32,351 nt of DNA from Chrysochromulina tobinii. Its lineage: Eukaryota. The DNA lies in NCBI GenBank assembly GCA_001275005.1, contig JWZX01003326.1, positions 1 to 32,351 of the forward strand. Direction: 5' to 3'. Under the pieces are notes generated by a model. That model worked only from the letters and a program-made list of their open reading frames with translations. It ran no database searches and was not told the DNA's origin. The position numbers were made by a program, and so were the translations under genes. This document shows positions 2,519 through 32,021 of the stretch, in pieces (within the stretch, counting starts at the first letter, position 1; the number at the start of each line of letters is the position of its first letter).

Positions 2519-2890
2519 CGATCGATCGACGCTATCTAGCCAGCGCTACGCTGTTGATCTGGCGGGCGGACACCAAACGGACAGTGCAAGGGGGCCCGGG
2601 ATGAGACAGGGCTTGCGATGTGCACGAAAACTTGCGACAACGAGTTGTCAGAAAGACAGACACAAACACCCCTCCAATGGGAATGTATGTAACAAAATTG
2701 CATGCATTCACCAATATGATTCATCGCACCGGCCGGGGTCGAAGGCCCTTACGCTGCACGAAGTGCTCACAAAAAAGACGTTGCACGAACTTCTCTTGCG
2801 AATGAGTACAAGCTAACGCGCGAGGAAATAAGGAGGAAACGAAGCTCGAAGGAAACGTCCGAGGTCGGGCGGCGGGGTTACATTGGACTT

Positions 2891-2959: not shown

Positions 2960-3073
2960 CCACAGGGCTCAAGCAAACCAAGGGGCTGGGAGCCCCTTGA
3001 GCAAACCTTTCCTCTCTTCACGAGGCTTTTTGAGTGATCGCTTTTTTCGTTTCAAAAGTCGACTCAACGCCCA

Positions 3074-9000: not shown

Positions 9001-12000
9001 ACGCAGGCGCGCAGCGCCAGGCGGCCGTTGCCCTCGCTGCGCTGGCTGTCGGAGGACACTCGATCCAGGGCAGTATCACGCGCGCGGGGGGCATAGAGCC
9101 CCTCGTCCGTCTGCTCGATGCGGCGGCGGCCCGCACCCAAGGCAGCACCGCGGCCCAAGCCGCGACCGCGCTGGCGGCGCTCGTGGCGAACCATCCCGCA
9201 AACCAGGCGGCCGTCGCCGCCGCGGGCGGCATCGAGCCGCTCGTGGCCATCATTCGCGACGCGGGCGCAGAGGACGCCAAGGAGGAGGCAGCGACAGCCC
9301 TGTGGGCGCTCACGGCCAGCCATCCGCCCAATCAGACCGCCTCGGCCGAGGCGGGCGCGATCGTGCCGCTCATCGCCATGCTTGGAGCGGGAGGCACGCG
9401 TGCGCAGGCGCAGGCTGCGAGCGCACTCGCCTCGATGGCCCTCGGGCACAGCACCAACCAAAGCGAGATCGCGAGCATGCTCGTGCAGCTGCTCAATGCG
9501 GAAGGAGAGGTGGACGAGAGCAAGGGCACGAAGGCCGCCCGCGCTATTTCCCGGCTTGCGCGCGCGCACGAGGCCAACCAAGCGGCCCTCGCGGCTCACG
9601 GCGCCCTCGTGTCGCTCGTGCGCCTGCTACGATGCACATGCCTCGACTACCTGCCCGACGGCGTCACAGCCGCGCTAGGCTCACTCCGCGCGTGCCGCGA
9701 AGTGATGATTGTTGGGGGCACGCCCATCGCCACGCCGCTGCACACACCGCTGCACACGCCGCTGCACACGCCGCTGCACACGCCGCGCTCCCTCAGCAGC
9801 AATCTCCTGCGGCGCGAGATCGCATGCGCACTCTGGAGCATGGCGGATGGCTCGTCCGCCAACCAGGAGGCTATCGCCGCTGAGGGCGGCGTGCCGCTGC
9901 TCATACGCGCTGCTCAGCAAGGACTTTGAGGCGGCAGTGCAACGGGAGGCCGCCGGAGCCCTATGGTCCTTGGCCTCGCAGCTGCCCGCCATCCAGCGGC
10001 GCATTGCGGACTCGGGCGGACTGGCGCCTCTCGTGGGTCTGCTGTCGAGCAGCCACGTGCCCACTCAAGAGACCGCCGCGGGTGCACTTTATAGCCTCGC
10101 ATCCCTCGCGACGAACCGGACCATCATCGCTGAGGTCAAGGGCGTTGCGGCGCTCGTGGGAGTTGTCGAGCGTGGCTCCGCCCAAGGACGGGAGCAGGCC
10201 GCTGGAGCGCTGCTCACTCTTGTGCAGGCCAACTCCGCCAACCAAAGCGCCGTGTCGAGCGAGCTGGTTGCCAAATTGGGCGAGGGCTCGAAGGCGACGG
10301 CCGAGGCGCAGGGCGAGATGACGAATCTGGTGCACCGACTCTCGCTCGACTCGAACAATCGCGCCGCACTCGCAAAGGCCGGCGCTATCCCTGCGCTGGC
10401 CCTTCAGATGCAGAAGGCTGCCAAGGCGGGCGCGCCCGGCGCGCCGCGCACCATGGTCGCCGCCGCGGCGGCCCTCGCGCAGATTGCGCTCAGGTCGCCG
10501 CAGGTGCGGATTCAGGTGACGGCGCAGCTCATCTCACTGCTCGGCGCGCCCGAGCCCGAGGTTCGTCAATGCGCCTCGTCCACCCTGCGCGAGATGGCCG
10601 CCGAGGGCAGCGCCGAGTCGCAGGTGACGGTGGCCACGATGCCCGGCGGTATCGAGCGCATCGTCGCGCTGCTGCGCGAGGGCTCTGTCGAGGCGCAAGA
10701 GTACACGCTCTGGATGCTCGCGGTGATGACGGACGCGGCCTCCAAGAGCTCGATCGCGCACTCCCCATGCACGCGCGCCGTCGTCGAAGTCTTCCGCAAA
10801 AGCTCCGCTGCAGCGGCGAGCGCCGCCGCGGGCAAGGAGCTCCTACCCGAGGGCGCCGTGCTGAGCGCCCTCGCGCAAGAGCACGCGGCGGCGGTGCTCG
10901 CGCTCCTCGCCTCCGACATCCCGGGCGTCGATGAGGAGGTTCGGTCGCGCAACTCGCTCGAAATCTCCGCGTCAGGCGGCATTCGGCCGATGGTGAGGCT
11001 GCTGCGTGACGGGACCGACGGCGCCAAGAGGCACAGCGCCACGGCGCTCACGCAGCTCGCGTGCGGCCCGATGGGGCGCTCGAGCAGCATGCAGATCGAG
11101 ATGGCACGCGCGGGCGCAACGGCCGCCTTCGGCGCGTGGCTTCGCGAGCCGTCGCTCGGCCCTCCAGAGCTCGCAGCGCAGGCGCTCGCCTGCATCGCCA
11201 ACCGCAATGCAGACACGCAGACTCTCATTGCGGAGGAGGGCGCCATCCCGCCGCTCGTGGCGATGCTGCAGGCAGCGGAGCCCTCTGACGAGGCGCAGCG
11301 CTGGGCGGCGAGCGCACTCGCGGCGCTCGCGCAGGACCATCCGGTCAACCAGATCACCATCGCGGAGGAAGGAGCCATCGGTGCGCTCGTTGATCTTCTC
11401 AAGTGCCCCACGTCGGGCGCCGCGCACGAGAATGCGACGCGCGTACTCTGGCACCTGGCAGCCGACACCGACAACCAGTTGAGCGTCGCACGCGCGGGCG
11501 GGCTGGCGCCGCTGGTCGCGATGCTCTCGGCCGAGGCGCCCAAGACACAGGAATGGGCTGCGGCGGCCCTCTCCGCCCTCTCGCTCGACTGCGCCGAAAA
11601 TCAAGTGGCCATCGCACGAGCTGGCGCGATCCCAAGACTCGTGTCGCTCATCGGCTCGCCCAGTGACGAAACCCAGCTCTACGCGCAGGCGGCGCTCGTG
11701 CTCATGGCCAGCTCGTGCCCGCAGACGCGCTGCGCCGTGGTTCAGCCCCTCGTTGAGCTGCTCGATGAGTACCGGCTCGCGACGGCGCAGATGAAGGCTG
11801 CGGAGACGCTCTCGATGCTCGCAGCACGCTCGACCGCCAACCGCACGGCGATTGCCCAGGCGGGCGCCATCGCGCCGCTCGTGCGGCTGCTCGGCGACGG
11901 CACGAACGCGAACAAATCCCAGATCTCCGCCGCGGCCACCTTGGCCGACCTAGCACGCGCGGCCTCGGACCGCGCGGCGATCGCAAGTGCGGGTGGCGTC

Positions 12001-13449
12001 GGTCCACTTGTCGAGATGCTGCGTGCGTCCAACATGGAGGCGCAGGCCAAGGCGGCGGGCGCGCTCTTGCACCTCTCGTCGCTCGCAAGTGCGCAGACGA
12101 GCATCGTCGAGCGCAACGGCATCGCTCTCCTCGTGGCCCTTCTCGACTCCGAGCGTCTGTGTGCGGCCAACCACGCCGCGGGAGCGCTCTGGCAGGTGGC
12201 CTCGACTGCAGCGGCCAAGGGCGCCATCATCAAGGCGGGTGGGCTGACGAAACTCGTGGCGCTGCTGCTGCGCACGGATTCGGCGGAGGCCAAGGAGCCC
12301 ATAGCGGCGCTTCTCGCGGACCTCGCACGCACCGGCCACAAGGGTGACGCAACCAAGGGGACTCTCGTGGCCGCGGGCGGCATCGCGCCGCTCGTCGCGC
12401 TGCTCGAGGCGTCATCTGTCGACGCCCAGAAGCACGCGGCATGCGCACTGTGGGGACTCACAGACGGCGTGTCGGCACATCAAGCGGCCGCGACCGCCGC
12501 CGGAGCGGTGCCGCGGCTCGTCAGCCTTCTCGGGAACGAGAGTGAGGCGCAGGGCTTCGCCGCCGCGGCGCTGTGCAACCTGGCCGAGGATGCGCACGCG
12601 CGCCAGCAGCTCGTCGACGCCGGAGCTGTGAAATCTCTCCAAGAGATCTCCAAGGGGCCTCAGACGTGGCTGCGCACGCAGGCCGTCAACTTGCTCAACC
12701 AGCTCGACGTGTTCGCACCCCCCTCAGATGCGGAGGTCGGTCGGAAGATCCATCTCCAGAAGACAGACCTCCACAAGAGCCAAAAGGTGTCGCTGCAGGC
12801 GGCCGTGGTCGCCGCGAACGCCGCCGCCAAGCTGAATGCGCCTCTCAAGAATGGCGCCATTCTCTTCGATAAGGGCGTGCCGGCGGCAGCGACGGAGACC
12901 TCGAAGGAGGCGGCCCCGCCTCCCAGGGCAGCGGGAGAGGAAGCGCTCGCCGCGGCGCTCGCCAAGGCTGCTGCCGCGTACGAAGCTGCCAAGGCAGTGG
13001 CGGAGGTGGACGAGAATCTTGATGACCATTGCAAGACGCCGAAGGCGAAGCGCACGAGCAAACGGCCTCCCAAGAGTGGCGCCAAGGACAAGGAGCCCCC
13101 GACAACGACGCCAGTGGCGGCCAGAGATACTTCAAGCGCTCCGAACAGCAGCCGCGAGACGGGCGCCGCATCGCGTGACAACTCGCGGCCATCCTCACGA
13201 TCCTCTTCGAGGGTCAACTCACGCAACGTCTCGCCGCGCAACGGCTCGCCGCGCAACGTCTCGCCGCGCAGCGGCTCGCCGCTCAACAGCGCGCGCGCTG
13301 GCTCGCCCAGTGTCTCGGCAGAGCGTGCGCCTACAGGGAACGCTGGAGGGGCGTCGAGAGCTAAGCCACAGCGTAAGCGCACGCCCAGCCCGAACGCGAG
13401 GCGTTCGAGCCCTTCATCGCGAACGGGCGAGAGCGTGAGAATCGCTTGA
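3074..13449 (+). CDS. Giant armadillo/beta-catenin-repeat protein (Vac8-like repeats), ~3,457 aa once two single-base insertions (~5087-5091 and ~9905-9906) are removed
   Basis: Three overlapping ORFs (3074-5305, 4842-9929, 9709-13449) carry dozens of ARM repeats (IA.AGGI.PLV.LL ... AA.ALW.LA ... NQ). The ARM consensus passes from one frame to the next at the overlaps: AIAQSG|AISPLVSLL and GGVPLLI|ALLSKDFEAAVQREAAGALW. The C-terminal tail is S/R/P-rich and disordered. Confidence 0.85.
9731..9786 (+). repeat. 12-nt coding tandem repeat, (TPLH)x4
   Basis: ACGCCGCTGCAC units in a linker between ARM repeats. Confidence 0.85.
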
Positions 13450-13589
13450 GGCAGCTGAGGGTGGTTTCAGTAGGGAGTAGAGTAGTGCGCTTTCTTTTCC
13501 GGCACTTTCTTCTTCCCATAGCCTAGCTCTGCGATGGAGCCCAAGGTCCAATAAAAAACATGAAAACCCCGCACCCCGCCTCACGGCCG

Positions 13590-13682
13590 TCTGTACCGTG
13601 TACGCTGTACCGTGTACGCTGCCTCGCCGCACGCCGGCCCGTGACCAAGCCCGTGACCAAGCCCGTGACCAAGCCCGTGACC
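13590..13682. repeat. Short tandem repeats in the convergent 3' intergenic region
   Basis: CTGTACCGTGTACG x2, then GCCCGTGACCAA x~4. Confidence 0.8.
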
Positions 13683-13872
13683 TCTCCAGTCGCGGGTACC
13701 GGTTGAAACCGCCTGCGCCTCGGCCCCTCCCCGCAGCTCGAGCTGCTCGGCTCTGCACCGTCCCGGGGTCACTCTAGCGAACTTACAGCCGGGCCGGTTC
13801 TTCACCACCTCACGATTCTGTCGCGATGGTCCCGCGTAGCCGTAGGATCGGCTGCTTTTCGAACCTGACTTT

Positions 13873-16800
13873 TCAGATTCGCTTTGCTGTGAGGGCGCCG
13901 TTACAGAGGGTGAAGCTGCGGCCCAGGGTGGGAAATTGTACCTTCTTGCCTTGCTTTGCGATGCCGAAGAGTGGGCAGTCATGGCTGTGAAGGCTGCCTT
14001 TGAAAGTTACCTGGTTGTAAGGTTTTACACCAGATGACTCAGCCACTCGGCGTGCCGTCACTGTTGCTGTTGCGTTGCATTCATTGCAGGTGACCTGTAG
14101 GTCAAATGCTGCGTTGCTCTCAATAGCACGGGCCACTGAGCAAAAAGCAGGCGATGGTGTGCGAATGGGTGTTAGAGGAGAGAACAGGAGAGAATCTATC
14201 ACAGGAATCAGTGCAAGACTTACCTCCTCCCTTGGCTTGAGCAGTCGTGTCCGCCTTGAAGGCCTCGGCGAGGCGCGGCATGAGCGTGGAGAGGCGGGCG
14301 AGCTCGTCGTGGGAGGCGTGGCACGTGCGCCCCCACAACGGCGAATTCGCCACCGGGATCTCCGCGAGCCCGCTCAGCACGCGGAGGATGTTGATCACGC
14401 CCATCGTGGTCTGGACAGCGGCCGCAGGTTCTGCGTTTGGGCCCTTGAGCTTGGGCGAGGATACCACGATGCCGACGAGCTTGCACGTGTTGTCCGGCAT
14501 CTGCACCAGCTTGAGGCCGAAGAGGTGCTTGGCCTGGCCCGGGGTCATCTCGCACTCGGCCACGCTCTTGCCGAAGAGCTTGTAGACGGCGGGGCCGGCG
14601 TGCAAGACAGCGGCGACGGAGCCATCCTCTACAAGTTGATGCAGAGCCTGCAGCTGGCTATCGCCCTGGGCGAGCGCGCCGGGCTTTTCTGGGCTGCAGA
14701 GCGTGGGCAGCACCGAGGCGCTGGCGCAGGCGCGGGCGATTTCGTCCGTCTTCGGCGGCTCCTTGTACGTCGATGGTCTCGAGCCCTTGCCCGCCTGCAC
14801 GTTCTCGTCAAACACGGTCGCGAAGGAGACGTCATTGAGGTGGACCGCCGTGAAGGGGGGGTCTGGCGGATTCGGCGAGAGAAGGGCGGCCTCCAGCATG
14901 GCGGTCTGGAACGTTGGCACTGTGGAGCCGTCCTGGTGGCACACATATGGGCCCTTCTGGGCCGGAAATCGGCTCATGCCCACGTCAGCTAGGTTACGAG
15001 TTGTCTCCAACTGTTGGGCCAAGGGCCAGGACGTGAGCAGACTCCAGATCGCGGCGTTGGGCAACGCAGAGGACCCCATTGGGTTGGTCTCAACTCGAAA
15101 GCCTTTGAGGCAGAGTTCACGGGCCTTGGCCACCCCGGCTTGCACGGCCGCCACATCCGGGCCTGCCACGTGGCTGCTGCGGGCGAGCTCCAGGCAGGCT
15201 TGCAGCCCTGCCAGCAGCGTCGTGAAATTTGGCGAGCCCATCGGCCGGCAATTTGGCACAGCAGCAGCATCAGCAGCAAATGCTGCTACAAGGGCCCCAG
15301 CCTCAACATGGCTGCTGGGAACACCGCCACTGCCGCCGCTGTCGCCACAGCTGCTGGGAACGCCACTGCCGCTGCCGCTGCCACCGCTGCTGCCGCCATT
15401 GGGAACGCCACTGGGAACGCTGTGCTGTGCGGCCCAATGCTCGGGAACGCCGTGGGCAGCCCAATGCTCTGGTGGGATCTCGTACACTTCCACCTCCTCA
15501 TCACTGTCCATGAGCGAAAGGCGAAGGGCCTTCTGCAGCTGTGCTGCATCCCCATCCTCGTCACTGTCAACGACTGGCACTAAGTCACGTCCAAGGGATG
15601 TCGAGTTGACTCGTTTCTTGCCTTCCTTGCGGGCCACCAGAGAGGTCCGAGTTGCTTGGCCTTCCATGGACAGAGCTATTGCTTGCACGAGCCGGGCCTC
15701 CTCAGTCTCAGCCGTATCCAGTGTGCTGACACCAACTGCCCCGCCCGCGCATGCTCCGCCCATCTCTGAACAGAAGCCACCACCGGCCTTGTCACTGTAG
15801 CCGCTGCCGCAGAAATTACTGCCGCCACCTAAGCCATCCGAGAGCATATGTTCGGGCTGGGCGTGGTGCAGCTGCACGGCCAAGGCGGACATTGGCCGCG
15901 AGCTTTGGGTGCTGCCACCGCTTCGACCACCGAAGCTGTCGCCGCTATGGCGCATGGCAGCGGCGGCGGCGCACGCGCCTTCAAGATCGAACGCATAGAG
16001 ATCCGGGTCCGAAACATCAGTGGAGACAGTGGTGAGAGTGGTCTGGAAGCTGCCGAAATTGCCGCCAGTGCTGATGCCATCCGAGAGCAAATGTCTGGGC
16101 TGGGCACGCTGCAGCGGCACGTCCAAGGCTGACATTGGCCTCGAGCCCTGGACGCTGCCGAAGCCACTGCTGCTGAAGCCACTGAGGCCGCCGTAAATGC
16201 CTCCTGGGTGCCGGTTGAAGCCGCTGCCGCCAGCAGCTGCCTTATCTGGCGGTGGCAGTCCTTCCGGCAACTCCACTCCCACCATCATCTCTCCAGGAAC
16301 ATCCCCCGGAGGTCCTGATGGTAGGTCTGGTGGAAGTTCCTCTACAGTCTGGAGCCGATCCGGCCTCTGCAGCCATCTTGGCACCTGATGAAGGAGGTCA
16401 TCAGGTGCATCAGCCGCAGACGGTTGGAGTTCATCAGGCGCAATCAGGCACTCAGGAGGGGCACTCATTAGGTGCAATCAGGCACACTTCACTCACCGGC
16501 TGTGGTCCGCTCTCACACCGGCTGACCTCCGCAATCTTGTCCTCGTGGGCGCCGTGGATCGGAGGCGCCAAACGGTTCTTGAGCGCAGGCATGGTGCTGA
16601 ACAGTGGTGCAGCGTACTTGTGGAGCGGGATGGTCATCGCATTCCACATCTTGAGCACGAGCTGCAGCGGAGTCAGCTGCACGTGCGACCGCTCTGCCGC
16701 AGCGGTTTGCTCGTACGACGGTGGCGCCAGCTTGGGCGGCAGCGCGGGAGCGGCAGGCCGTGGCGGGCCGAGCGCGGCAGACGCACGCGTGGAGCGTGCA

Positions 16801-19800
16801 GCGCGCGCCAAGCGCACTGCGACCACCTCGACTTCTGCCCGCTCGGCAGCCTCTTCGGCAGCCTCGGCCGCCTCGTTCGCCTGCCGCTGCTGCTCGTGCG
16901 CCGTGGCCGCCTGGTCTACTTGGCAGCTAAGCGCCGCGGAGAGGGCGATTCGATGCCCCTGGCCACCTCGAGGGCACGAGGACTCCTCGTCCCGCTCCAT
17001 CGCTACCCGATCGACCATGGCCGGCTCTTGCGCCTTCTCGTCGACCTCCTCGTCCTGCTGCTGCGCCATCAGCTCACCATCCGCCGCCTCGAGCGCCGCG
17101 AGCTTCGACCGCAGGTGCTCCTGCAGTCGCTCGGCGAGCACGGCCTCGCGCCCGCCCTTGGTGTCGAGACCTGCGCGGGTGAGCTCCGCACGCAGCTCAG
17201 CGAGCTTGAGCGGGTGGATGCGCTCGAGCAGATCCTCGAGCGCCTGCTTGCTGTCCTCAAGCTCGTCAGCCTCCGCAGCTCCCTCCACCGCGCCATGCGC
17301 CGGTGCCTCCTCAGCGGCGGGTGTATCGTCGATGGCGTGCTCGTCCGCGGTGTCGAGCGGCGGCTCAGTCTCATCCATTGGCGCGCCCATGTCCTCTGCG
17401 GGCAGCGGCTGCGTGTCGTGCTCGGACGACGGTGGCGCCGGCTTGGAAGGGGGTGACAGTGGCGCCGGCTTGGAAGGGGGCGGGGACGCCTTCTTCTCGC
17501 GCTCGGCCACTGTGAGCTGCTCCTGCGCGGTGACGTGGTCTTCGGTCTCGGATACGTCCGAGAGCGCCGACTGCGACACGTTGAACGAGGAGGGCGGCGG
17601 CGTGCGCCCGAGGCCCACCGCGAGGCGCACCGCGAGCGTGAGGGAGGTCGTGCTCATCTTGCGCCCAAGGCTGGTTTTGGTGGCAGAGGGGGCCGCGTCG
17701 CCACTTACTGCCAGCTTGCTCAGTCGCGGCATGGCCGCCGCGCCGATCCAGCCACTGCCGCCCTTGGCGCCACCACTGCGGACTGCGGCCAGCTTCAAGA
17801 CACTCCACTTGGCGCCTGAGCCGCTGCCGTCGGCGCCACTGCCTACTCCGGCTGCAAGCCCCTTGGTTGCGCTCACCTTGCTCGCGCCGGCATCGGTGGC
17901 CGGCGCTGGCGTGCGAGGCGCGCTGCCAACGGTGCTCGGAGGCTCGAAGTCGCGCTGCATCCGCGGCGCAGGGCTCTTGACACCCGCGCCGGCGAGCAGC
18001 ACTGCGCCCGCGCCAATGCTGGCACCGCCGCCCTTGCCCGAGCTGCCCGCGCTGCCACTTGAGCGAGCTGGCGCGCCGCTGCCGACGGGGAGAGAGACAG
18101 AGGAGACCGACTGCTTGCGGGCCGCACGCTCAAGCACCTTGGCGGGTGCGCGCTGCTCGTCGAGGAGCCGCAGCAGCACCGGACGCCAGCTCTCGGGCAG
18201 CGCGGGGAAGATTCGATCTGCGATCGTCTCCACCTCGGCCGCGTCCACGCAGAAGGCGATCGAGAGGTCCTTGGGCACAGGCTCCAGTGGGATCGCAACG
18301 GGCGTGGCGAAGAAGCGCACCCAGTAGTAGCGCCCCGCCTCGCGCGCGCCACTCACGACCGGCGAGAGGCCCGCGCGCAGCTCAAGCTCGCCGTCGTCAG
18401 GTTCGACGACCACGCCAGACTCGAGCTCCGTGTCGAGGAAGAGCTCGCGACGGCACGTCTGCTGGTTGCCCAGGTCGTAGTTCATGTCGATGGTGGAGAG
18501 GTTGAAGTCGAACCAGCCAAGGTGGTCGCGGCGCGAGCCCCACGCGCACTGCTCGCCGAAGTTCGTCTGCGCGAGCGGCCGAAGCGACAGCACGCGCGAG
18601 CTCACGTCGCCCACGTTGAGCGCCGCGAGCAGCTTGCGCGCCGACTGGCTCTTGACTCCCAGGCTCTTGGACTCGCCCGACAAGCGCGCCACGTACGAGG
18701 CATGCTCGTCGATCTCGAGGGGCGCGTAGCGCGCTTGGAGCACGCTCAGCTTGTCGGTGCACGCGGCCGAGTGCTTGGCGAAGACCTGCAGCGTCGAGAT
18801 CAGCAGCTCCTGCAGCTTGAACAGGCCCGCCGAGAGGAGCAGCTGGTCGAGCATGCTCGCGAAGCCGGAGCAGAGCGACTCCGGGAGCGTGTGGAACTGG
18901 ACGCGGTCGAACTTGCAAAGGATGGAGGCCGCCTGGAGACGCACGTCGGCGTGAAAAGGGGTCGGCTCGGCGCACGTGACCACGCGGTACGCCGAGTGTT
19001 GCAGCGCCGTGCACGCGACGCGAGAGTCGTCCACGAGCTTGGCGTCCTCCTCGATGGTCTGGTCGGTGTTGCCGAGCATGCACATGATCATCGTGCTCAG
19101 GTGGTACATGAGGTTCTGCGAGAGCGCAACGCGCGGAGATACGGTGCAGGCTCGGTCAGACGTGCGCGCGCGCAGCGCACGGTGCGAGCGCGCGGCCGAT
19201 GGGTGAGCGGTCGGGCGGGCGCTCGATCGAGTGGATGGGCACTGACTCACTGCGGGCGGCGCGCGCGAGTGGACGCACCTGATCGTCACATGGGTAGTGA
19301 CCGGACATGCGCGCGAGACGCAGCACGTCGTACAGCTTGCACACCGCGTTCATGAACGCCGGGGTGAGGAACTTGGCAAGCCACGCCTTGGTGCCTGTGC
19401 AGCCCTTTTTGCCATGTACGAGACGGCAGACCTGCGAGTGGGGCGGATGGGAGAAGCGGTGAGCGCGTTGAACTTGGAGCGATGGGAGCCAGGCGTGCTT
19501 GTGATGGGCGCGCGCGGCACCGGCCGAGCGGCTCGCAACATCTTGCGCGGTGCGGCGCGCGAGGTGCATGCGCAAGCAGTGCACGCGCGCATGCACGCCA
19601 GGGAACCTGCAGTGTCCAGAGTGCGCGATGGACGCAGGACGAGACGCGCTCCCTGCGCGCTGCAGCCCCATGCGCAGGCGATTCGGTAGCGATGGCGTGA
19701 GGCTCGCGCGCGCGCTCACCAGATCGAAGAAGTCTTGCAGGTGCATCGGGCAGTCATCCGGCATCTCCTTGGCCGTCTCGATCGTGCGGAGGATCTCGAA

Positions 19801-19851
19801 GAGAAGCGGCTCGGCCGTCGGTGGAGAGACGTCGTCGGACTCGTCGGACAT
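13873..19851 (-). CDS. Multi-exon gene, ~1,775 aa: SYCP2/Red1-like N-terminus + SAP domain + 2 UIMs + unknown globular domain + WRKY/GCM1-like Zn finger. Predicted exons 19851-19720, 19431-19279, 19115-16497, 16384-14224, 14135-13873
   Basis: ATG at 19851. GT-AG introns at 19719-19432, 19278-19116, 16496-16385 and 14223-14136 join the 249-, 945-, 785- and 109-aa ORFs in frame (exon total 5,328 nt). Domain motifs are detailed under findings. The 16496-16385 join that makes this a single gene is inferred. Confidence 0.65.
14136..14223 (-). other. Spliceosomal intron (88 nt, phase 1)
   Basis: GTAAGT donor, CTAAC branch-like motif, TTTTTGCTCAG acceptor. It joins KGG|VARAIES in frame. Confidence 0.8.
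15506..15703 (-). other. Two ubiquitin-interacting motifs (UIM)
   Basis: EEARLVQAIALSME (15703-15662) and DGDAAQLQKALRLSLMD (15556-15506) match the acidic-xx-L-xx-A-L-x-L-S UIM consensus. Confidence 0.75.
16385..16496 (-). other. Spliceosomal intron (112 nt, phase 0) with degenerate CCTGATTGC/CCTGATGA motifs
   Basis: GTGAGT donor and CTTCATCAG acceptor. It joins the 945-aa and 785-aa ORFs in frame (GPQP|VPRW). Confidence 0.7.
17112..17219 (-). other. SAP DNA-binding domain
   Basis: IHPLKLAELRAELTRAGLDTKGGREAVLAERLQEHL fits the SAP consensus LxxxELKxxLxxxGLxxxGxKxxLxxRL. Confidence 0.85.
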
Positions 19852-20155
19852 GATCCCGGCGGGTCTGTGTGGGCGCGAAGGGGACGATGCGCGCTCGCGG
19901 TGCAAGGTGCGTGGCGACTGCGCTAGGGAGTGATCACTCGCCCCTCGGGCGGTCGTGCCGGTACCGCGCGCGCGCGCTCGAGCGAGCGAAGCTCAAAAGG
20001 GCGCTCTATCAGATTCATGTCGAATCGCAGCGCATGCATTTCAATCACTTGCAGTTACTGAAATTCGCAAGTTTCAAGTCGTTGAGGAACGCGTTGAGTC
20101 TCCAGAGGACAGAGGACGTCGGAGCGCGCCCTCGAGCTGAGGCGAGAGGACAGGG
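19852..20155. promoter_or_regulatory. Probable compact bidirectional promoter
   Basis: Only 304 nt separate two head-to-head ATGs, with a visibly AT-richer core at ~19990-20100. No specific element was identified. Confidence 0.45.
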
Positions 20156-23100
20156 ATGGGAGACTCTCAACAGGTGAACAACCTGCTGCAGCAGCTCGCC
20201 CGGCAAACCGCGTCGCTCGCGCAAGTTCAGGCGGAGTGGGAGCGCCGGCAGTCGGCGACTCCCAGGTCGCTCCGGGTGCGCCTCGGCGATGCAAACTATG
20301 AGGTGCGGCTCGAAGCACTTGAGGAGCTGGCCGAAGCCTTGGGCAACGAGGATCTCTCGCTTGGCGATACAACCATCATTGCGCGGCGCCTGCGCGAGGA
20401 GGGTTCGCTCGCACGGCTCGCCCTGCTTGTGCAGGATGACTCAAATGAGGTGCTCACAAGGGCCCTCTACTGCCTTGGTAACTTGTGCTCCGACTCCTTC
20501 GACACGGCGAGCCGCGAGACGAAGAAACTGCTCTTCGAGCGGGACGGCAGCGGTGCGCGAGCGCGGCGGGGCGTGACGAGCGCTGACCGCTAGCCCACCA
20601 TCGCGAGCCTACCCGCGACCTCCCCCACACCTCCCCTACACCCGTCTGAGCACACGCGAATTATCCCCCACCTTTCGACTCCCGCCCCGCCCGCCCCGCC
20701 CGTCCCGCCCGTGATCTCAGGCATCAGCGGCGCGCTCCTGCGCTGCCTGGCCTCGCCCGACCTCGAGGTGGTCACGTACGCGGCGGGGCTGTGCCTCAAC
20801 CTCTCCAATGAGCACATGTGGTGCCAGTTACTCCTCGAACAGGGTGGCGCGGACCGCTTCGAGGCGATGGTGGCCCATGACGACTCGCTCATCGCGCGCT
20901 ACGCGGCCAGCACGCTGGTGAACATGTCGGCGCGAATCCCGGGGCTCGAGCTCATCCCAACCGTCGAGCGCGACATCAGAAAGTACGGGGACCTCGTCAA
21001 AGCCGTCGAACTCGGGCTAGTGCCTTCGGGCTCGATTGAGAATTGGAGGCCGGCCGCCAATGTCGTGGCGGCGATCGCCGCGCGCGCCTCGCCTCGTGGG
21101 AAGAAGGAGATGCAGGCGGCGGCAGCCCTCTCGCGGGTGCGTAAAGAGGCGGAGATGGCGGCCTTCAAGGCGGAGCAGGAGCGGCAGGTGGCCGAGAGGC
21201 GACGGGCCGAAGAGGAGGAGGCGGCGTATCTTCTGAGGCTCGAGGCTGAGGCGAAGCGCGAGGCGCAGCTGGCGGAACGCGAGCGCCTGAGGCTCGTGGC
21301 CGAGGCGAAGAAGAAAGCAGAGGATGAGGCGGCGGCAGCGACCAAGGTGCAAGCCATCACGCGCGGCCGGTCGGATCGCGAACTGACAAAGGGCCTGAAG
21401 GCGAAGAGAGCGGCAGAGCAAGCGGAGGTGGAGCGCAAGCAGCTTGAGGCGGAGGCGAAGAAACGCGCCGCGGACGAGGCGAAACGACGCGCCGCGCTGG
21501 ATGCGGAAGAGCGCAAGCAGCTTGAGGCGGCGGAGAAGGAGGCGCAATTGGCACGCGAGAGGGAGGAGGCAGAGGCGAAGGCGGCGGCCGAGTTGAAGGC
21601 GGCGGCTGATAAGGCGGCGGCCGAGGCGAAAGCGGCAGCCGACGCAAAGGCGGCGGCCGAGGCGAAGGCAGCGGCCGAGGCGATGGCCGCACGGATGGCA
21701 GCGGAGAACCATGCGGCTACGAGTATCCAAGCCACATTTCGTGGCCGGAGAGATCGCGGGCGCGTGGCGGTCATCCGTCGACAGAACGTCGTCGAGGCCG
21801 ACGCGGCCACCACCATTCAGGCGCACGCACGCGGCCATGCGGACCGTTGCATGGTGGCGAAGCAGCGCGCTCAGATCCTCGCGCGGAGTCGGCTGCACAA
21901 GGGGATCTCTACAGTGAAGCTCACCACGGACATGGAGGCACAAGCCAAGCAGACGGAGCTCGAACGTCGTGCAACGACCAAGATTCAGGCGCGCGTCCGC
22001 GGGCGCTCGGCACGCAAGAAGGTCAAGGCACTCCGTGCCCAAAATGAGGTTGAGCGCCAGGCGGCGACGACGCTGCAGGCGTTCGCGCGCGGGATGCAGG
22101 ACCGCGCGTACGTGTCGGCCATCCGAGCGCAGATTCACAAGGAGCTGCGCGCCGCCATTCGGATGCAGAAGCATGCACGTGCCATGGTCGCGCGGCGGCG
22201 TGTGGCGGCCATGCGGGGGCAGCGTGCCGCCGAGGCTGCCACGCTGCTCGTGGTGGAGGCGGCGCATGCGGCCAAGGAGGCGGCGACGCATGCGGCTGAG
22301 GGGGAGGCGGCGGCGGCGACAGCGGCAGGCACGGCGATGGCTGCCATGACGCAGGCCACGGCCGCAGAGGCTGAGGCGCTCAAGGCCAATGAGAGTGCGC
22401 TCCGCGCCCAAAAGGAGAAGCAAGTCGATGAGTGTACGGCGGCCTCGAGCAAGGCAGTTGAAAGCGTCGCGGTGGCCGCGGCGGCAGTGGAGGCCACGGA
22501 ATCGGTCGTGAGCGCCGCGACCACAAGCGCAACCGCGGCGGCCGAGGCCTCTACGACCGCCCAAACCGCGCTTGCAAAGGCCAAGGAGTGCTTCGCCCAG
22601 GCGACGCACGACCCGCTGCCCTTGGGCACACTGGAGGCGCCGGCTCGCGCCACTCGCGCGGCGGCGATGGAGAGGCTGGAGGCGGCTGCGGAGTCGGCGG
22701 CCGCGGCGGCGCAGTCGGCGCGTGCGGCGGCGGCGTCCCTGGCCAAAGTAGAGATGGCCGTGGCGCGTGCCGGCCAGGCTCATGCCGCCGCCAAGGAGGC
22801 GGCAGTAGCCGCGAGCGCCGCGAGCGCCGCCACGCGCGCGACGGCTGCCAAGGAGCGCCTCAAGAAGCATGCGAGGGCGCAGGTCCTCGCGGCGGGGCTC
22901 CGACTCAAAGCCGAGGAGCTTTCGCGCCAGCGTGCAGAGGCGGCGCGCCGGGCGGCGGCTGCGCGCGCGGGGCTCCGAAAGGCGGGAAGGACGACCGCGT
23001 TCCAGGCGGGTCTCAATCTCAGGGCACAGGAAATGGAGAGGGAGCGTGCACAGGCGGCGGCCGAGGCGGCGGCCGTGGTGGCCGAGGCGGCCGAGGTTGC

Positions 23101-26100
23101 GCTTGCAGCCAGCGAGAGGGCGATGACGGCGGCGGCGGAGGTGGTCTCCGGGGCGGCGGCAGCTGCACAGTCGGCCGCGGAGGCGGCGGACGCTGCAGCA
23201 GAGGCGATGCGTGCGCAAGCGAATGCGGCGGCTGCGGCGGCGACTAAGGACGTTGACGGCTGCATGCAGGCCGCCAAGGCGGCGGGGGCGGCCGCTGCCA
23301 AGGCTGCGACGTCGGCCGCGGCCGCCCAGAGCAAGGTGGCGCCGGCCGTAGAGGGATCGGGCGTGAGCACGGCCGCCGAGCGCGAGGTTGGGGCAGCGCT
23401 GGTGAAGGCCGCCGAGCACGTGGCGAAGGCGTCGCGCGACCCGATGCCCGATGGGCCTGCGGGCGTCGTCGCACTCGAGACGCAGACCGCGGCAAAGAGC
23501 TTCGAAGCGGATGTCAAGATGGCAGCAGTGTCGGTGACCGAGGCGGCGAGGGCGGCGAGCACTGGGATGGTGGAGGCGAAGCAGGCTGCCCACGCGGCCA
23601 CTGACTCCGCGGCCAAGGCCACGGCGGCCGCGGAGGAAGCTGCCGCGATTGTGGCCAAGGCGCGTAAGGAGCAGGCCAAGCGACGCATGCTCAAAGCCGG
23701 CCGGACAGGTGTGATGACGGCCCACCTCCAGAAGCGTGCCGAAGAGATCGAGGCTGAGCGGCAGGCCGAAGCGGCACGCCATCGATGGAAAAAGGGGGGG
23801 CGCGCCGCACTCATGACGGCAAGCCTACAGGCGAGGGCAGAGGAGCTCGAGAGAGATCGCGCCAAGTTTGCGGCCGAGGCTGCCGACGAGGCAGCGCAGG
23901 CGGCGGCCGCGGCGCAGGATGCCGCGCGCAAGGCGCGAGCGGCTGCGGCGGCAGCTGCCACAGCCGCCACCGCCGCGGCAGAGTCGATGGCGTTGGCATC
24001 CGCTTGTGCCATGGATGGCGACAAGGCACGGGAGGCGGTCGACAAAGCGGCTACCACCAACGATCTGGGCCGGGCGATGGTGATGGCCCGCACCGCGTGC
24101 GCGGCGGAGGCGACGGCGAGCGCGGCGGCAGAGCGGGCCAGGGGCGAGGTGGAGCCTGCACGGCAGGGTGCAGAGGCAGCCAAGATGGCGGACGAGGAGG
24201 CGACCGAGGCCCTCAGCAAGGCAGCCGAGGGTGCCGAGAAGGCGTTGCGCGACCCGATGCCCGATGGGCCTGCGGGCGTCGTCGCACTTGAGACGCAGAC
24301 CGCGGCCGAGACGAGCTCCGAAGAGGCCACCAAGGCGTCGGTGGCGGCGTCGAGCGCCTCGGTGGCGGCGGAGACTTGCCTAGGTGAGACGAAGGCCTGT
24401 GCGGCAGCCGCGGCGGAGTCAGCGACCCATGCGCATGCCTCGGCTCAGCGGGCTGCCGAGCGAGCCCAGCTGATCCTCGAGGCTGTGGTGGCTGAGAGGG
24501 CAAGGGCTGTGGGCGAGGCGATGGCCGAGGCCAGGCAGGAGGGCGAGGCGGCCAAGGCGGCGGCACAGAAGGCGGCAGAGGCCGCATCCACCGTTCAGAT
24601 GGCCTCTGACGCTTCCCAAAAGGCGGAGGCGGAGTCCCAAAGTGCCCGCGAGAGCGCCCTCAAGGCAGCCGAGGCACTGCAACTCGAGACGCTCCTTACA
24701 CACGCAGCGGCGAGCTATGAAGCGGCGGGCCGAGCGGCGGCGGCGGCGGCGGCGGCGGCGGGCGGCTTCGAACCGGTGGCCAAGAGCGCGGAGGAGGCAG
24801 AGGCGGCGCGCGCAAACGCTGCGACCGCGCACGCGGCCGCCGACGCGGCACGCGGGAGCGCCGTGACGAGCGCCGAGGGGCCGACCTCCGCTGACAGCGC
24901 CGTGACGAGCACCGTGTCGAGCGCCGTGACGAGCGCCGAGGGGCCGACCTCCGCTGACAGCGCCGTGACGAGCGCCGAGACGAGCGCCGAGACGAGCGCC
25001 GAGGGGCCGACCTCCGCTGCTGGCGGCGAGGGCACCGCGCCCGCCGCCGAGGACGGTGGCGAAAGCAACACGGCTGCCGCCGTTGACGTTCCGAATCCGA
25101 GCGCTTCGGAGCCTTACCAAGCCGCCCGCACGGCCGTCGCCACGCGCCTCGCCGACGCGCTCACAGGCTTGAGCGTCTTAGGGGCGCTGAGTTGGCTCGA
25201 CCCTGGAGTGGTTACGTTTGCCCAGTTGACGTCGCCGTTGCTGATTTGCAAGGGCGAGGCGAAGGCGAACGCCAAGGATGCTGCGGCTGCGGCGGGCGCG
25301 GCCGAGGCGGCCGCGGCCGCGGCGGCCGCCTCGAGCGTCTCAGCGCAGTCTGCCATCGGTGCAGCCGCGTTGTCATGCACGGCCGCCAAAATGGCGGCCG
25401 AGGTAGCGACCGGTAAGGCGCAGGAAGTGCTCGAGACACTCGTGGCCGAGGCGGCCGTGAGTGTGAGCACGGCGGCGCGCGCGACGCAGCAATCAGATGC
25501 GAAGGTGGCGACCTTCGCGGCCCAAACACTCAAGGCGCTCGAGGCCGTGCAGTCGACGGCACTCGAGACGGCGGCCGCCGAGGCAGACACCCTCGCGGCG
25601 CTCGACACGGCGCTCGTGGAGGCGGCCGAGTCGACACGCGTGCGCGAAAAGTGCCTCGGGCCGGGCGAGGCGTATCATGCGGACTCGAGCCTCGCCAAAG
25701 CCAAGGAGGCGGAGGCAGCCGCGAAGCGCGCCGTCGCGGGCGCCGCGGCCACGGAGCATAAGCTCAAGGCAGTCGAAGCGTCCGAGAAGCTCACTTGCGA
25801 GGCCGACGAGGACGCGCAGGCGGCGCTCGCTTTAGGCAATGGGAGCTTGCAATTGGTGCTCGAGCGCGCCGCGCTGGCGACTGGCGCGCGGATGCCGTGG
25901 CTGGCCCCTCAGGAGGCTGGGAAGCCTGTGAGCGCCGCGGCGGGCGCGAGCGTCGACGAGGCCGTTCGGATGGCCCTGGAGGCTGTGAAGCCCGTGAGCG
26001 CCGCGGCGGGCGCGAGCGTCGACGAGGCCGTTCGAATGGCCCTGGAGGCTGTGAAGCCTGTGAGCGCCGCGGCGGGCGCGAGCGTCGACGAGGCCGTTCG

Positions 26101-29100
26101 GATGGCCCTGGAGGCCGCCATAGCCGCAGAGAGATCTGCGAGCACCAGGGCGGCTGCCGCGGATGCGCTCGCGCAAGCGAGGCAGATGACTCAGGCGGCC
26201 GTCGAGCAGGTGACTGATGACCCTTGAGGACCCTTGAGGACCCTTGATGACCCTTGATGACCCTTGATGACCCTTGATTGCCACTGATGATCACTGCTCG
26301 GCTCCGTCGAGCAGGCGACCTTGGCAAAGTGCAGCGCCGTGACCGCGGCCACGCAGGCGCAGGAGGCCCTCGAGGCGGCCATAAAGCGTAAGTTGGGCGA
26401 CGTGGCCCTCGGAGCGATCTTGGCGATGAGCCGCGCCATTCGAGCGTACCGCAAGCGCAAGCGACGCACGCTCGAGATTAACAAGTACGCTGCCGAGAGC
26501 TGGGGGAGCCTCCAAAGCCCTGCATGCACGTGCTCACCACGGCGCCCTTTCGTCACGAGCGCTGGGGGAGCCTCCAAAGCCCTGCATGCATGTGCTCACC
26601 ACGGCGCCCTTTCGTCACGAGCGCTGGGGGAGCCTCAAGAGCTCTGCATGCACGTGCTCACCACGGCGCCCTTTCGTCACGAGCGCTGGGGGAGCCTCCA
26701 AAGCCCTGCATGCATGTGCTCACCACGGCGCCCTCTCGTCACTGACGCGCCGAGCTGCCTGCATGCATATGCTCACTACGGCGCCTCGTCCCCCTCCCCA
26801 CAGGTACGCAGCCGAGCTCTGGGGGGGCCTCTCGGGCGGCGCGCTCGCCGTGGTCGAGGCGACGCGTACCGCCTTCGATGCGTGCTGGGTGCATGCAATG
26901 CGCCGGTTGCATGCGGCCGTTCGGATCCAGGCGCTCTTCAGGTGGAAGGTAGCACACCGCCGGGTAGTGGCCGAGCAGGCAGCGCGCTACGCGGCAGCGT
27001 GCCGGAAGCAGTCGGCATGGCGCGGCTGGCTCGGGAGGCGGATACGCATGCGGCTCGAGGCCCAGATCCGTGCGCACGTCCAACGGATTCAGACGTTTCA
27101 GCGCATGCTCGTGGTGCGTCGCTACTACCGAGTGCGCCTACCAGTGATTCGGACGGATCAGATGCGCATGCGCCTCGCGCGCGCGTGCACGATCAGCGCC
27201 ATCAGCAACGTGCAGGCGGCGCTCAAGGTCGAGTACCAGCGCGCGTATTCGCTCTCGATGGCCAAGCGGGCGGCCGAGGTGCTCGCCCAAGCTGCCGAGG
27301 ATGTCGTCGCCACTGAGGCCGATGCGCACGCTGCCGCGCTCGCCGGTGCCGAGGCAAGTGCGGCGGCGATCGAGGCGGCCAACGGCGCGCTCGCCGCCGA
27401 GCGCGAGGCCCTCGACGCCAAGCAGAGGGCCCTCGAGCAGGTGAGTCTCGTCAATTGCCTCTGATTGCCTCTGATTGCCTCTGATGGCCACTGATGGCCA
27501 CTGATGGAGCCCCCATGCCCCTCGAGCATGTGAGTCTCGTTAATGGCCTCTGATTGCCTCTGATTGCCTCTGACTGCCACTGACGGAGCCCCCATGCCCC
27601 TCGAGCAGCTCTTGGTGCCCTTTGACGCGAGCTTGGGATACGTGACGGCGTCCAAAGGGCTCGACCAGGTCGATCTATGCGCCGTCAAGGCTTCTCTCGC
27701 CGAGGCGGCGGCGAACGAGGTCGTCGGGCACGCCCAGCAGGCGGTCGATTGGGCGGTGCTCGCCAGCCGCCATGCGAGCGCGGCGCGTACGGCCAACGAG
27801 GCCGCCGAGGCGGCCGTGCTGCAGGTGAGTCTCGTCAATTGCCTCTGATGGCCTCTGAGGGCCTCTGAGGGCCTCTGAGGGCCTCTGATGGCCTCTGATT
27901 TGCCGAGGCGGCCGTGCTGCAGGTGCGCTTCGCGCGCAAGCTCATCGTCGTGCTACTCGGCCAGAGCACGGGCAAGACCTTCCAGGCCATCTTTCAGCCA
28001 AACGACGCGATTGGCCAGCAAGCGCTGCAAGTCTTCAAGGCGGCGCAGGCGGACGCGGCGCGCGCCGAGAGGGCGGCCGCGGCCGTCGGCGCGAATGCTG
28101 GCAACTCGACGCGCAACGCGCACCGCGCCGAAACGGCGGCCGCGCGCGCGCAGAAGGCGCTCAGCACGGCGCGCGACGCGGCGGACCTGGCGGCGCAGCA
28201 GGCTGTGAACGCAGTCGTGCTGTCTGTGAAGCGCGCGCAACGCATCCGATCCTCGCTCTTCCACAACGACTTGGACGCCACCGCCGTTTTCGGCGAGCCT
28301 TCGCCGCCGCTCATCTCACCACGCACCAAGAACAGCTCGCCACAACGCTCCAGCTCGCCGCCCCGCTCAGCGACGCGCTCGTCGATGCGCAGCGCGCACG
28401 CCGGCGGTGGTTCCACGCTCGGCGGTGGCAGCTTCGCGCCGCCGCAATTCGAGCCGCCGCCGGCGCCGCTCTTCCGCGAGGGCTCGTTGGCGGCGGAACT
28501 GGCGGCGAAACATGCGCCGCCGCCGCCCACGCCGCCCCTCCCCTCATCCCCCCGCTCGCCCTCCCCCTCATTGGATCCTTACCCATCATACCCATCGGAC
28601 TCGGACACAGAGTTGGGGCACCGTCCCTCACCCAGCGGCCGCTCCAACCAGCCCCCCGCCCACGACGGCGCGCCCTCGCCCAGCGGCCGCTCCAACCAGC
28701 CCCCCGCCCACGACGGCGCGCCCTCGCCCAACGGCCGCTCCAACCAGCCCCCCGCCCACGACGGCGCGCCCTCGCCCAACGGCCGCTCCAACCAGCCCCC
28801 CGCCCACGACGGCGCGCCGACGCCCCGCCCGCCACGGCGCGCGCGCGCTCCCGCGGTGGTGGGCGCCGATTTCGTCAGGCTCGAGGACGGGAGCATTGCG
28901 CTCGTCGATCTGGTACGCGACGATCGAGGGCCCGTCTTGGCGCCGCTCAAGCCGAAGCCGTACACGGGCGGCCTGTCTAGGCAAGGCTCCAGAGGTGCGC
29001 TGACGTATGCTGGTACACATGGCGATCATGCATGCACGTGCTCACCACGGCGCCTCGTCCCCCTCCCCACAGGTACACATGGCGATCGGAGTGCTGGCAC

Positions 29101-31164: not shown

Positions 31165-31941
31165 TCAACGACGACGGCCACCCACGCGGCCGCCGACGCG
31201 GCCGCCGATACGGCGCCCACGCCCGTCACCCGAACTGCCGTCTGCGCGGCGACCGCCGTGGCCGGTGTACGGGGAGCCGCCATAGCCACGCAGCTTATCG
31301 TGGCCATAGCCATAGCCGTGGCCATAACCATAGCCGTGGCCATGGCGCGGGAAGCCGTACATCATCCACATGGCCGCATTCATCCAGCTGTGGAGGCGGC
31401 GTTGCTGCATGTAGCGTTCCAGCTCGGTCTGTCCATGGGACGTGGCCGTCGTGTTGACTCTGGTGGCAGCCGCCGCCGATGGCACGCTTACAAAAGGCAT
31501 CGGCGCGACGAGCACATTCTCACCGACGCGCAGCTTGAGCATCCTCATGTCCGCAACCGTCAGCCGCACGCCCGCGTCCAGCTTTGGGTCGGCCACCGCC
31601 TCACCGATGGCCTGGTCGGGCTCCGAAGACCACAGTGCCGCCGGCTTCATTTTGCGCACGCGCACGCGGCTGCCGGGCTGCAGGCCGAGTCGTTCGAACT
31701 CTGAGGACGGCAGCGTGATGAGTGTGCCGCCCTCGGTCGGGTTGACGACCTTGAGCTGCAGCACCTCCGTGCGAGCGCTTTTTCCATCGAGGCGGGGTTC
31801 GGCGGCGAGCATCGAGGGACCGGGCATTGTAGCGACGTTGCCACCTCGCATGCGCAGCAGCTGCGACTGGCCAATCCGTGATGGGGCCGCGCCGGCGGCG
31901 ACTGCCGAGGCAAGGCACGCGACCAGCAGGCTCACCCGCAT
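31165..31941 (-). CDS. Signal-peptide protein with a stand-alone CDC48/p97 N-terminal-like (double-psi beta-barrel) domain and a Gly/His/Tyr/Arg-rich tail, 258 aa
   Basis: Hydrophobic leader MRVSLLVACLASAVAAGA, then LLRMRGG. The stretch LKVV...ITLPSSEFERLGLQPGSRVRV...VRLTVADMRMLKLRVGENVLVAP follows the two-fold pattern of the CDC48_N domain. No Walker motifs. Confidence 0.7.
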   Translation of the reverse strand: MRVSLLVACLASAVAAGAAPSRIGQSQLLRMRGGNVATMPGPSMLAAEPRLDGKSARTEVLQLKVVNPTEGGTLITLPSSEFERLGLQPGSRVRVRKMKPAALWSSEPDQAIGEAVADPKLDAGVRLTVADMRMLKLRVGENVLVAPMPFVSVPSAAAATRVNTTATSHGQTELERYMQQRRLHSWMNAAMWMMYGFPRHGHGYGYGHGYGYGHDKLRGYGGSPYTGHGGRRADGSSGDGRGRRIGGRVGGRVGGRRR

Positions 31942-32021
31942 CGCGTTAGACTCGGCGGTCGGTTGCCGGCTGTGGCCGCCGTGTTTTGAGGATCACAGTT
32001 TCCTTTCCGAGAAAGTGTCGT

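What the first reader, a model, noticed from the sequence alone, without database searches (positions are those of the whole stretch)
18084..19851. SYCP2/Red1-like meiotic chromosome axis protein in an apparent microalga
Seen, in order: SMLDQLLLSAGLFKLQELLISTL, SARKLLAALNVGDVSSRVLSLRP and LGWFDFNL (WFDFN at 18515-18501). From my recollection of vertebrate SYCP2, these parallel ...ILDAGDYDLQV.I.EAL, ...CRIFLNLVNGMLGDKRRVFTFP and ...FWIDFNL, which span the ARM-like to Spt16M/PH-like domain junction. Established: SYCP2, Red1/Rec10 and ASY3 are fast-evolving meiotic axis core proteins that are hard to detect across lineages. Inference: a divergent axis-core homologue, relevant to cryptic sex and to the ancestry of the meiotic axis.
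Basis: partly seen in the sequence, partly recalled or inferred. Interest (0 to 1): 0.8.

Follow-up and report, generated by a model that had tools for sequence, protein, structure and literature searches.

The report
Haptophyte SYCP2 gene behind a misassembly
This stretch encodes the start of a protein predicted to fold like the meiotic chromosome-axis protein SYCP2, likely the axis-core gene that a 2021 survey could not find in haptophyte algae, but the contig is probably stitched from two gene copies: a full-length one and a truncated, transcribed duplicate.

Summary
The motifs are present as described. The window matches a Chrysochromulina tobinii (haptophyte) record. The spliced N-terminal 422 residues fold in AlphaFold (pLDDT 73) as ARM repeats plus a PH-like domain. 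Mouse SYCP2 (5IWZ) is the only Foldseek hit at E<=0.001 and leads a 48,161-chain comparison at Z 19.5, next 12.6. Sequence support alone is weak (profile E 0.058, no Pfam hit). Tromer et al. 2021 reported HOP1 but no SYCP2-3 in Haptophyta. Other assemblies hold two loci: A (2,300 aa, with SAP domain and a likely C-terminal coiled coil) and B (1,780 aa, spliced in RNA, lacking that tail). The window carries B alleles at 68 of 68 positions up to 18416 and A alleles at 104 of 104 from 18544; 0 of 21 loci share its join. Meiotic function is inferred, not shown. The scan noted SYCP2-type genes before in two other genomes.

The parts
19720..19851 (-). Exon 1 (aa 1-44), locus-A alleles
   Evidence: ATG 19851, GT at 19719; RNA joint; A-type at all diagnostic positions
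19279..19431 (-). Exon 2 (aa 45-95), locus-A alleles
   Evidence: GT-AG introns on both sides; RNA joints; same as NCBI model
16497..19115 (-). Exon 3 as assembled (aa 96-968): A-type down to 18544, B-type from 18416
18609..19851 (-). Predicted ARM-like helical repeat domain (about aa 13-264, spans two introns)
   Evidence: AlphaFold secondary structure; aligned to 5IWZ
18174..18593 (-). Predicted PH/Spt16M-like beta domain (about aa 270-409), holding WFDFN
   Evidence: strands E270-E386, block pLDDT 54-90; 5IWZ alignment runs to residue 409
18417..18543 (.). 127-bp stretch identical in loci A and B; probable assembly switch point
   Evidence: no diagnostic position inside, B alleles below, A alleles above; contig L008 ends at 18421
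18090..18119 (-). Candidate HORMA closure motif (R-K-x-S, Ser/Thr-rich) directly after the folded domain, aa 428; a second copy at aa 580 (17663-17634)
   Evidence: recurs at the same place in locus A, P0048, P0010, P0007/P0029; position matches Red1 and SYCP2 closure motifs; binding untested
17109..17210 (-). SAP domain (aa 731-764)
   Evidence: Pfam PF02037 E 0.0014, below cut-off here; above cut-off in P0048 (30.3 bits) and P0010 (41.4 bits)
16660..19884 (-). Segment shared by loci A and B (B lacks two internal pieces of A and ends in an 87-bp internal duplication)
   Evidence: L015 versus L002 blocks at 86-97% identity; RNA contig joints on L002
14224..16384 (-). Exon 4 of copy B (aa 969-1688): sequence unrelated to locus A, with two weak UIM-like motifs (15656-15706, 15503-15544) and an unidentified C-terminal region
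   Evidence: RNA joints 16496-16385 and 14223-14136; UIM E 0.041 and 0.24, below cut-off; no family found
13873..14135 (-). Exon 5 of copy B to the stop codon (aa 1689-1775)

Best explanation
The marked DNA encodes a predicted ARM-plus-PH domain that begins a likely SYCP2/Red1-type meiotic axis-core gene of the haptophyte Chrysochromulina tobinii, and the window is probably an assembly join of that full-length gene (locus A) with a truncated, transcribed duplicate (locus B). Locus A gives 2,300 aa: ARM-PH head, candidate closure motifs, a long low-complexity linker with a SAP domain, and a helix-favouring C-terminal tail. By analogy with Red1, SYCP2 and ecRED1 (inferred, not shown), the tail would form coiled-coil tetramers and filaments along meiotic chromosomes, the motifs after the head would recruit the Hop1-like HORMA protein, and the SAP domain would tether the axis to DNA. 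Locus B keeps the head, two motifs and SAP but has swapped the tail for unrelated sequence, so it would not build an axis filament.
For: Fold: Foldseek gives 1 match at E<=0.001 among 350,542 chains, 5IWZ (E 4.3e-5). VIA-align over 48,161 chains: 5IWZ Z 19.5, rmsd 4.7, 310 aligned, model 2-409 on chain 1-394; the next row is Z 12.6 and covers the helical part only. The model was made without templates from an alignment holding no SYCP2. Atlas leads: SYCP2, Rec10/Red1 and a euglenozoan PH-like cluster at 0.89-0.81. Architecture: 4 of 21 loci hold the full-length gene, 2,300 aa without stops; distant relative P0010 has the same head-SAP-helical tail order. Chimera: 68 of 68 and 104 of 104 diagnostic positions; window 18417-29109 is 100% identical to L002 and 6913-18543 is 99.97% identical to L015; 4 loci link A-up to A-down, 9 link B-up to B-down, 0 of 21 link A-up to B-down; three assemblies hold both loci (L003/L012, L004/L015, L005/L018). 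Context: Haptophyta have HOP1 (PMC8131943); a C. tobin 'horma domain-containing protein' has FPKM 0-0.53 in a culture time course (PMC4580454 supplement).
Against: No Pfam SYCP2_ARLD, SYCP2_SLD, Red1 or Cor1 hit in the window ORFs, in 12 of 12 homologues or in 9 of 9 further proteins. Profile E 0.058 misses the E<0.01 criterion of Tromer et al.. Foldseek TM-scores are 0.38/0.42 with rmsd 13.5 and 12% identity; the PH part of the model is less confident. Atlas recognition was 1770, under its 2300 mark, and the named hits are under 0.9. The tails of locus A and P0010 are not detectably similar (341 of 2,000 shuffles score as high). The motif pattern was written after seeing the sequences, so its shuffle counts are not a fair test, and the first motif lacks the hydrophobic middle residue of 'KIS'. 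KKT17/18 show that this fold can serve outside meiosis. Several short-read assemblies mix A and B alleles inside the shared segment, and many loci may come from the same cultures, so they are not independent.
Confidence: 0.8

Rival explanations
1. The homology holds, but the join is real: the reference strain carries a recombinant made by crossing over between loci A and B in the 127-bp identical stretch.
For: A single clean switch point is also what a crossover leaves; the join keeps the frame open; I could not see the reads behind this contig (no genome held).
Against: Near-identical material (100% over 10,693 bp and 99.97% over 11,631 bp) shows both parental loci intact, and 0 of 21 loci have the join; another contig ends at the start of the identical stretch (L008); the reference was merged from two assemblers with Phrap (PMC4580454).
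Confidence: 0.08
2. The family descends from SYCP2 but in haptophytes works outside meiosis, as a mitotic chromatin or kinetochore scaffold, as KKT17/18 do in kinetoplastids.
For: Copy B is spliced in RNA contigs from cultures; the SAP domain is not part of the described axis-core layout; diploidy has never been observed in C. tobin (PMC4580454).
Against: Locus A keeps the full described layout with motifs at the closure-motif position; haptophytes keep HOP1 and C. tobin is reported to have a full meiotic gene set.
Confidence: 0.08
3. Convergent ARM plus beta-sandwich protein unrelated to SYCP2.
For: 12% identity, no Pfam hit, profile E 0.058; helical repeats reach Z 10-13 with many unrelated chains.
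Against: Z 19.5 covering both domains stands 7 units above all other rows; three conserved motifs fall in register; the overall domain order also matches.
Confidence: 0.04

Closest known systems
Mouse SYCP2 N-terminal domain (PDB 5IWZ; Pfam PF18581 and PF18584)
   Same: ARM-like repeats followed by a PH/Spt16M-like domain over about 400 residues, three junction motifs in register; closure-motif position directly after the domain (PMC6349405 passages).
   Different: 12% identity; no Pfam hit; locus A is 2,300 aa and carries a SAP domain; no SYCP3-like partner was looked for.
SYCP2-3 gene family of Tromer et al. 2021 (SYCP2, Red1, Rec10, ASY3, KKT17/18; PMC8131943)
   Same: SYCP2-type topology ARM-PH-linker-helical tail in locus A and in P0010.
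   Different: The paper lists Haptophyta as having HOP1 but no SYCP2-3. The deposited C. tobinii protein KOO21877.1 lacks the tail their inclusion rule asks for; whether that record was in their dataset I could not see.
Ectocarpus ecRED1 (PMC12678776)
   Same: Algal ARM-PH-coiled-coil axis protein with several candidate closure motifs.
   Different: ecRED1 has tested HORMA binding and sporophyte-specific expression; neither is tested here. 'SAP domain' does not occur in that paper's main text.
Kinetoplastid KKT17/KKT18
   Same: Precedent for duplicated SYCP2-type genes expressed in mitotic cells, which is the closest parallel for copy B.
   Different: KKT17/18 keep the coiled coil; copy B has lost the tail and gained unrelated sequence.

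Membership tests
SYCP2-type axis core (SYCP2/Red1/Rec10/KKT17-18) | N-terminal ARM-like helical repeats | tested here: met
   Helices aa 13-264, mostly pLDDT 70-98 from aa 61; aligned to 5IWZ
SYCP2-type axis core (SYCP2/Red1/Rec10/KKT17-18) | PH/Spt16M-like domain directly after the ARM repeats | tested here: met
   Strands aa 270-386; 5IWZ is aligned through both domains, 310 residues, Z 19.5, rmsd 4.7. Predicted model only.
SYCP2-type axis core (SYCP2/Red1/Rec10/KKT17-18) | Significant profile similarity (E<0.01) across the ARM end and PH domain | tested here: inconclusive
   5IWZ top hit at E 0.058 with a 12-sequence profile; no Pfam hit; the family's own HMMs were not available
SYCP2-type axis core (SYCP2/Red1/Rec10/KKT17-18) | HORMAD-binding closure motif after the N-terminal domain | tested here: inconclusive
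   R-K-x-S motif at aa 428-430 and repeats, shared with P0010 and P0007/P0029; resembles 'KIS' of Hop1/Red1 (PMC5758881); pattern chosen after the fact, binding untested
SYCP2-type axis core (SYCP2/Red1/Rec10/KKT17-18) | Long disordered linker | tested here: met
   Hydrophobic fraction 0.11-0.21 in sampled blocks of aa 401-2100 of locus A against 0.32-0.39 in the head; composition only
SYCP2-type axis core (SYCP2/Red1/Rec10/KKT17-18) | C-terminal coiled coil, locus A | tested here: inconclusive
   Last 170 aa: 6% Pro+Gly, 63% E/K/R/Q/L/A, heptad amplitude 0.17-0.18, highest outside the head but without a control; no Cor1 or PDB match
SYCP2-type axis core (SYCP2/Red1/Rec10/KKT17-18) | C-terminal coiled coil, copy B and the window's assembled ORF | tested here: not met
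   The tail of locus A is absent from the window and from L009-L018; last 170 aa have 13% Pro+Gly, amplitude 0.09. Copy B is a derivative, not a full member.
SYCP2-type axis core (SYCP2/Red1/Rec10/KKT17-18) | Tetramer and filament assembly | not testable with these tools
   Needs purified protein (SEC-MALS, electron microscopy)
SYCP2-type axis core (SYCP2/Red1/Rec10/KKT17-18) | Meiotic expression and axis localisation | not testable with these tools
   No sexual stage is known for this species (PMC4580454)
SYCP2-type axis core (SYCP2/Red1/Rec10/KKT17-18) | Co-occurring meiotic HORMAD in the genome | tested here: inconclusive
   Ctob_001630 is labelled 'horma domain-containing protein' in the genome paper's supplement; its identity as Hop1 was not tested; no genome was held

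The most novel reading that the evidence does not exclude
Haptophytes have a SAP-bearing axis core that binds DNA directly, and Chrysochromulina has repurposed a duplicate of it: copy B is a vegetatively expressed ARM-PH-SAP protein whose filament tail was replaced by ubiquitin-binding motifs and a new domain, acting as a mitotic chromatin adaptor or HORMAD decoy, an independent and very young parallel to KKT17/18.
Probability: 0.15. Interest if true: 0.82.

Novelty: new variant of a known kind. Interest (0 to 1): 0.56.

Why it matters
It fills a gap named in print: Haptophyta were one of six lineages with HOP1 but no detected SYCP2-3 gene (PMC8131943). A full-length copy makes a canonical axis, and hence cryptic meiosis, directly testable in an alga whose diploid stage has never been seen, and supports the view that such absences reflect detection limits. 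It also shows one likely cause of such misses: the public protein is probably a chimera without the coiled coil. The SAP domain, shared with a relative at 29% identity, is a layout I did not find described for axis cores. The family itself is known and expected to date to the last eukaryotic common ancestor, which limits the surprise.

Tried and rejected
Single-sequence fold of the exon-3 part: pLDDT 39, unusable. Single-sequence PDB search: 1 hit at E 0.75, unrelated. Word-indexed homologue searches reached only close relatives and no named SYCP2. Four-copy complex prediction of the locus-A tail: no verdict, score 0.00, alignment not used; this is neither for nor against assembly. RNA cover of locus A: in 3 of 3 culture RNA runs laid on L002 the assembled contigs carried B alleles and B joints, and the A-specific 3' half had no long contig; contigs show presence, not absence, so this is not counted as evidence of meiosis-specific expression. 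I first read the RNA loose end at 19863 as a distant upstream exon; it is not in the window and proved to be the genomic flank of locus B. The C-terminal region of copy B found no family in Pfam, PHROGs, PDB sequences or the Atlas (best 0.76), which does not show novelty. Selection test on up to 410 codons: A versus B pN/pS 0.57 (25 and 14 changes), A versus two outside A alleles 0.51 (8 and 5), changes private to B 19 non-synonymous and 9 synonymous; too few to separate constraint from relaxation. The genome paper's expression table is cut in storage; Ctob_005455 and the locus-A tail were not in the part held. Supplements of Tromer et al. could not be read.

Full report
Observation. The three peptides are in the window in one minus-strand frame, with WFDFN at 18515-18501 as stated. 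RNA contigs of three runs skip four GT-AG introns (19719-19432, 19278-19116, 16496-16385, 14223-14136), which gives a 1,775-aa reading frame from 19851 to 13873. The 16 RNA runs that hold the stretch are all 2019 mixed-culture runs and may be one campaign. A cluster look-up returned KOO21877.1 (Ctob_005455, Chrysochromulina tobinii, on a 32,351-base contig), identical to my model for 968 aa, so the organism is a haptophyte. No genome was held for the window.

Family evidence from sequence. A search of 1.84 billion representatives gave 18 hits at E<=0.001. I aligned the N-terminal 422 aa with trimmed stretches from 11 divergent clusters and left out 7 near-identical or chimeric hits. These relatives are unnamed metagenomic proteins; that they are other haptophytes is inferred (an Atlas cluster at 0.91 is mostly Haptophyta among 7 members with a phylum). 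Pfam gives no SYCP2 or Red1 hit for the window ORFs, 12 homologues or 9 further proteins. Atlas rows for SYCP2 and Rec10/Red1 score 0.83-0.89 with low recognition and are leads only.

Family evidence from structure. AlphaFold2 with the 12-sequence alignment gave pLDDT 73 and pTM 0.78: helical repeats to residue 264, strands from 270 to 386. Foldseek found one match at E<=0.001, 5IWZ (E 4.3e-5, TM 0.38/0.42, rmsd 13.5). VIA-align against 48,161 chains ranked 5IWZ first (Z 19.5, rmsd 4.7, 310 aligned, residues 2-409 on 1-394); the next row, WAPL, has Z 12.6 and covers only the helical part. The re-alignment of Foldseek's own hits agrees but is not independent. The folded sequence is A-type to about residue 286 and B-type after 328; A and B agree at 398 of 437 columns there, so the fold applies to both.

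Two loci and a chimeric contig. A cluster member, P0048 (2,157 aa), shares the head but continues for about 1,040 residues that the window lacks. A metagenome scan gave 21 loci: 4 with the whole gene (locus A), 10 matching only residues 1-970 (locus B), 7 partial or short; three assemblies hold both. With the two unmixed assemblies of each type (L002+L004, L015+L017; the B haplotype equals the RNA contigs), the window is B at 68 of 68 differing positions up to 18416 and A at 104 of 104 from 18544, with no differing position in the 127 bases between. Using all 5 A and 6 B loci the counts are 39 B and 85 A, with 18178-19105 uninformative because several short-read assemblies mix alleles there. 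The window is 100% identical to L002 over 18417-29109 and 99.97% to L015 over 6913-18543; 4 loci join A-up to A-down, 9 join B-up to B-down, none of 21 joins A-up to B-down. More divergent contigs also show both types: L001 follows A at 98.4% and L019 follows B and its flank at 97.6%, so the duplication is older than this strain. The simplest reading is a misassembly; a strain-specific crossover is not excluded.

Anatomy and likely working. Locus A is 2,300 aa with no stop (its introns are inferred from copy B and the NCBI model). After the head come R-K-x-S motifs at 430, 509 and 588, recurring in P0010 and P0007/P0029. Red1 and SYCP2 carry their closure motif directly after the folded domain (PMC12871700, PMC6349405 passages) around a 'KIS' core in yeast (PMC5758881 passages); my pattern was written after seeing the sequences, so this is a candidate only. 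A SAP domain passes the Pfam cut-off in P0048 and P0010. The last 170 aa favour helix but match no known coil and are not detectably similar to the tail of P0010. The axis role (filament, HORMAD recruitment, DNA tether) is inferred from Red1, SYCP2 and ecRED1. Copy B has two internal deletions, an 87-bp duplication and then about 860 unrelated residues with weak UIM-like motifs; it is spliced and has an open frame of 1,780 codons. Whether it makes a useful protein is open; the codon test is uninformative.

Comparison with print. Tromer et al. (PMC8131943; I saw passages and section 2.3, no supplements) state that Haptophyta have HOP1 but no SYCP2-3, and they required a C-terminal coiled coil for inclusion. 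Searches for haptophyt + SYCP2, haptophyt + synaptonemal + axial element, haptophyt + meiosis + HOP1 + Red1 from 2021 and Haptista + meiotic + chromosome axis returned that paper, the Ectocarpus paper (PMC12678776; passages and part 1 of the ecRED1 section; haptophytes appear only for HOP1) and one Pelagomonas preprint (listing only). SAP domain + axis core protein + SYCP2 returned 0 papers. The library lacks most subscription journals, and unseen supplements could hold a haptophyte entry. The genome paper (PMC4580454; passages and part of supplement 1) calls C. tobin haploid with a full set of meiosis genes and no observed diploid, and lists a HORMA protein at FPKM 0-0.53. A preprint (10.1101/2022.05.08.491100; passages) lists SPO11-1 for haptophytes. 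Feng et al. 2017 was seen only as cited. Two earlier scan notes describe SYCP2-type genes in other genomes; I did not test them.

Verdict. The full-length locus A is a likely SYCP2-type axis core, with membership met on fold and layout and inconclusive on profile score, closure motif and coiled coil. The ORF as assembled here is probably an artefact, and copy B fails the coiled-coil test. New variant of a known kind; interest 0.56.

Noticed in passing
window 3038-13449 (+): Very long armadillo-repeat coding region in three overlapping ORFs with 7, 18 and 10 Arm hits; lies downstream of copy B in other assemblies.
   Followed up: no
window 20141-30685 (+): Large gene with an Arm-like start, four IQ motifs and a long Ala-rich helical region; it is the upstream neighbour of locus A.
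   Followed up: partly
L015:2414-8657 (+), L013:1-5997: Upstream of copy B, a spliced ORF of at least 1,998 aa with a degenerate Hsp70 fragment (E 1.7e-10) and no other family; the RNA contig runs on into copy B, which does not by itself show one transcript.
   Followed up: partly
L020:8361-8644 and 9989-10207 (also L021): Three short degenerate fragments of the SYCP2 exon-3 start, two of them inverted, at 47-67% protein identity; further scattered fragments appear as P0012, P0014, P0015, P0056, P0057. Suggests repeated capture of pieces of this gene.
   Followed up: partly
window 13873-16660 (-): The 3' part of copy B has lower GC3 (0.58-0.71 in much of it against 0.8-0.95 in the head) and a roughly 110-bp internal repeat at 15806-15916 and 16049-16159; its origin is unexplained.
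   Followed up: partly
proteins P0005 and P0017: Pieces nearly identical to this gene joined to unrelated sequence (FeoB hit in P0017); probably chimeric metagenome contigs.
   Followed up: no
window 824-2545 (-) and 31165-31992 (-): A triose-phosphate-transporter-family gene and a small ORF with Gly-Tyr-His repeats and a weak TOBE-like hit.
   Followed up: no
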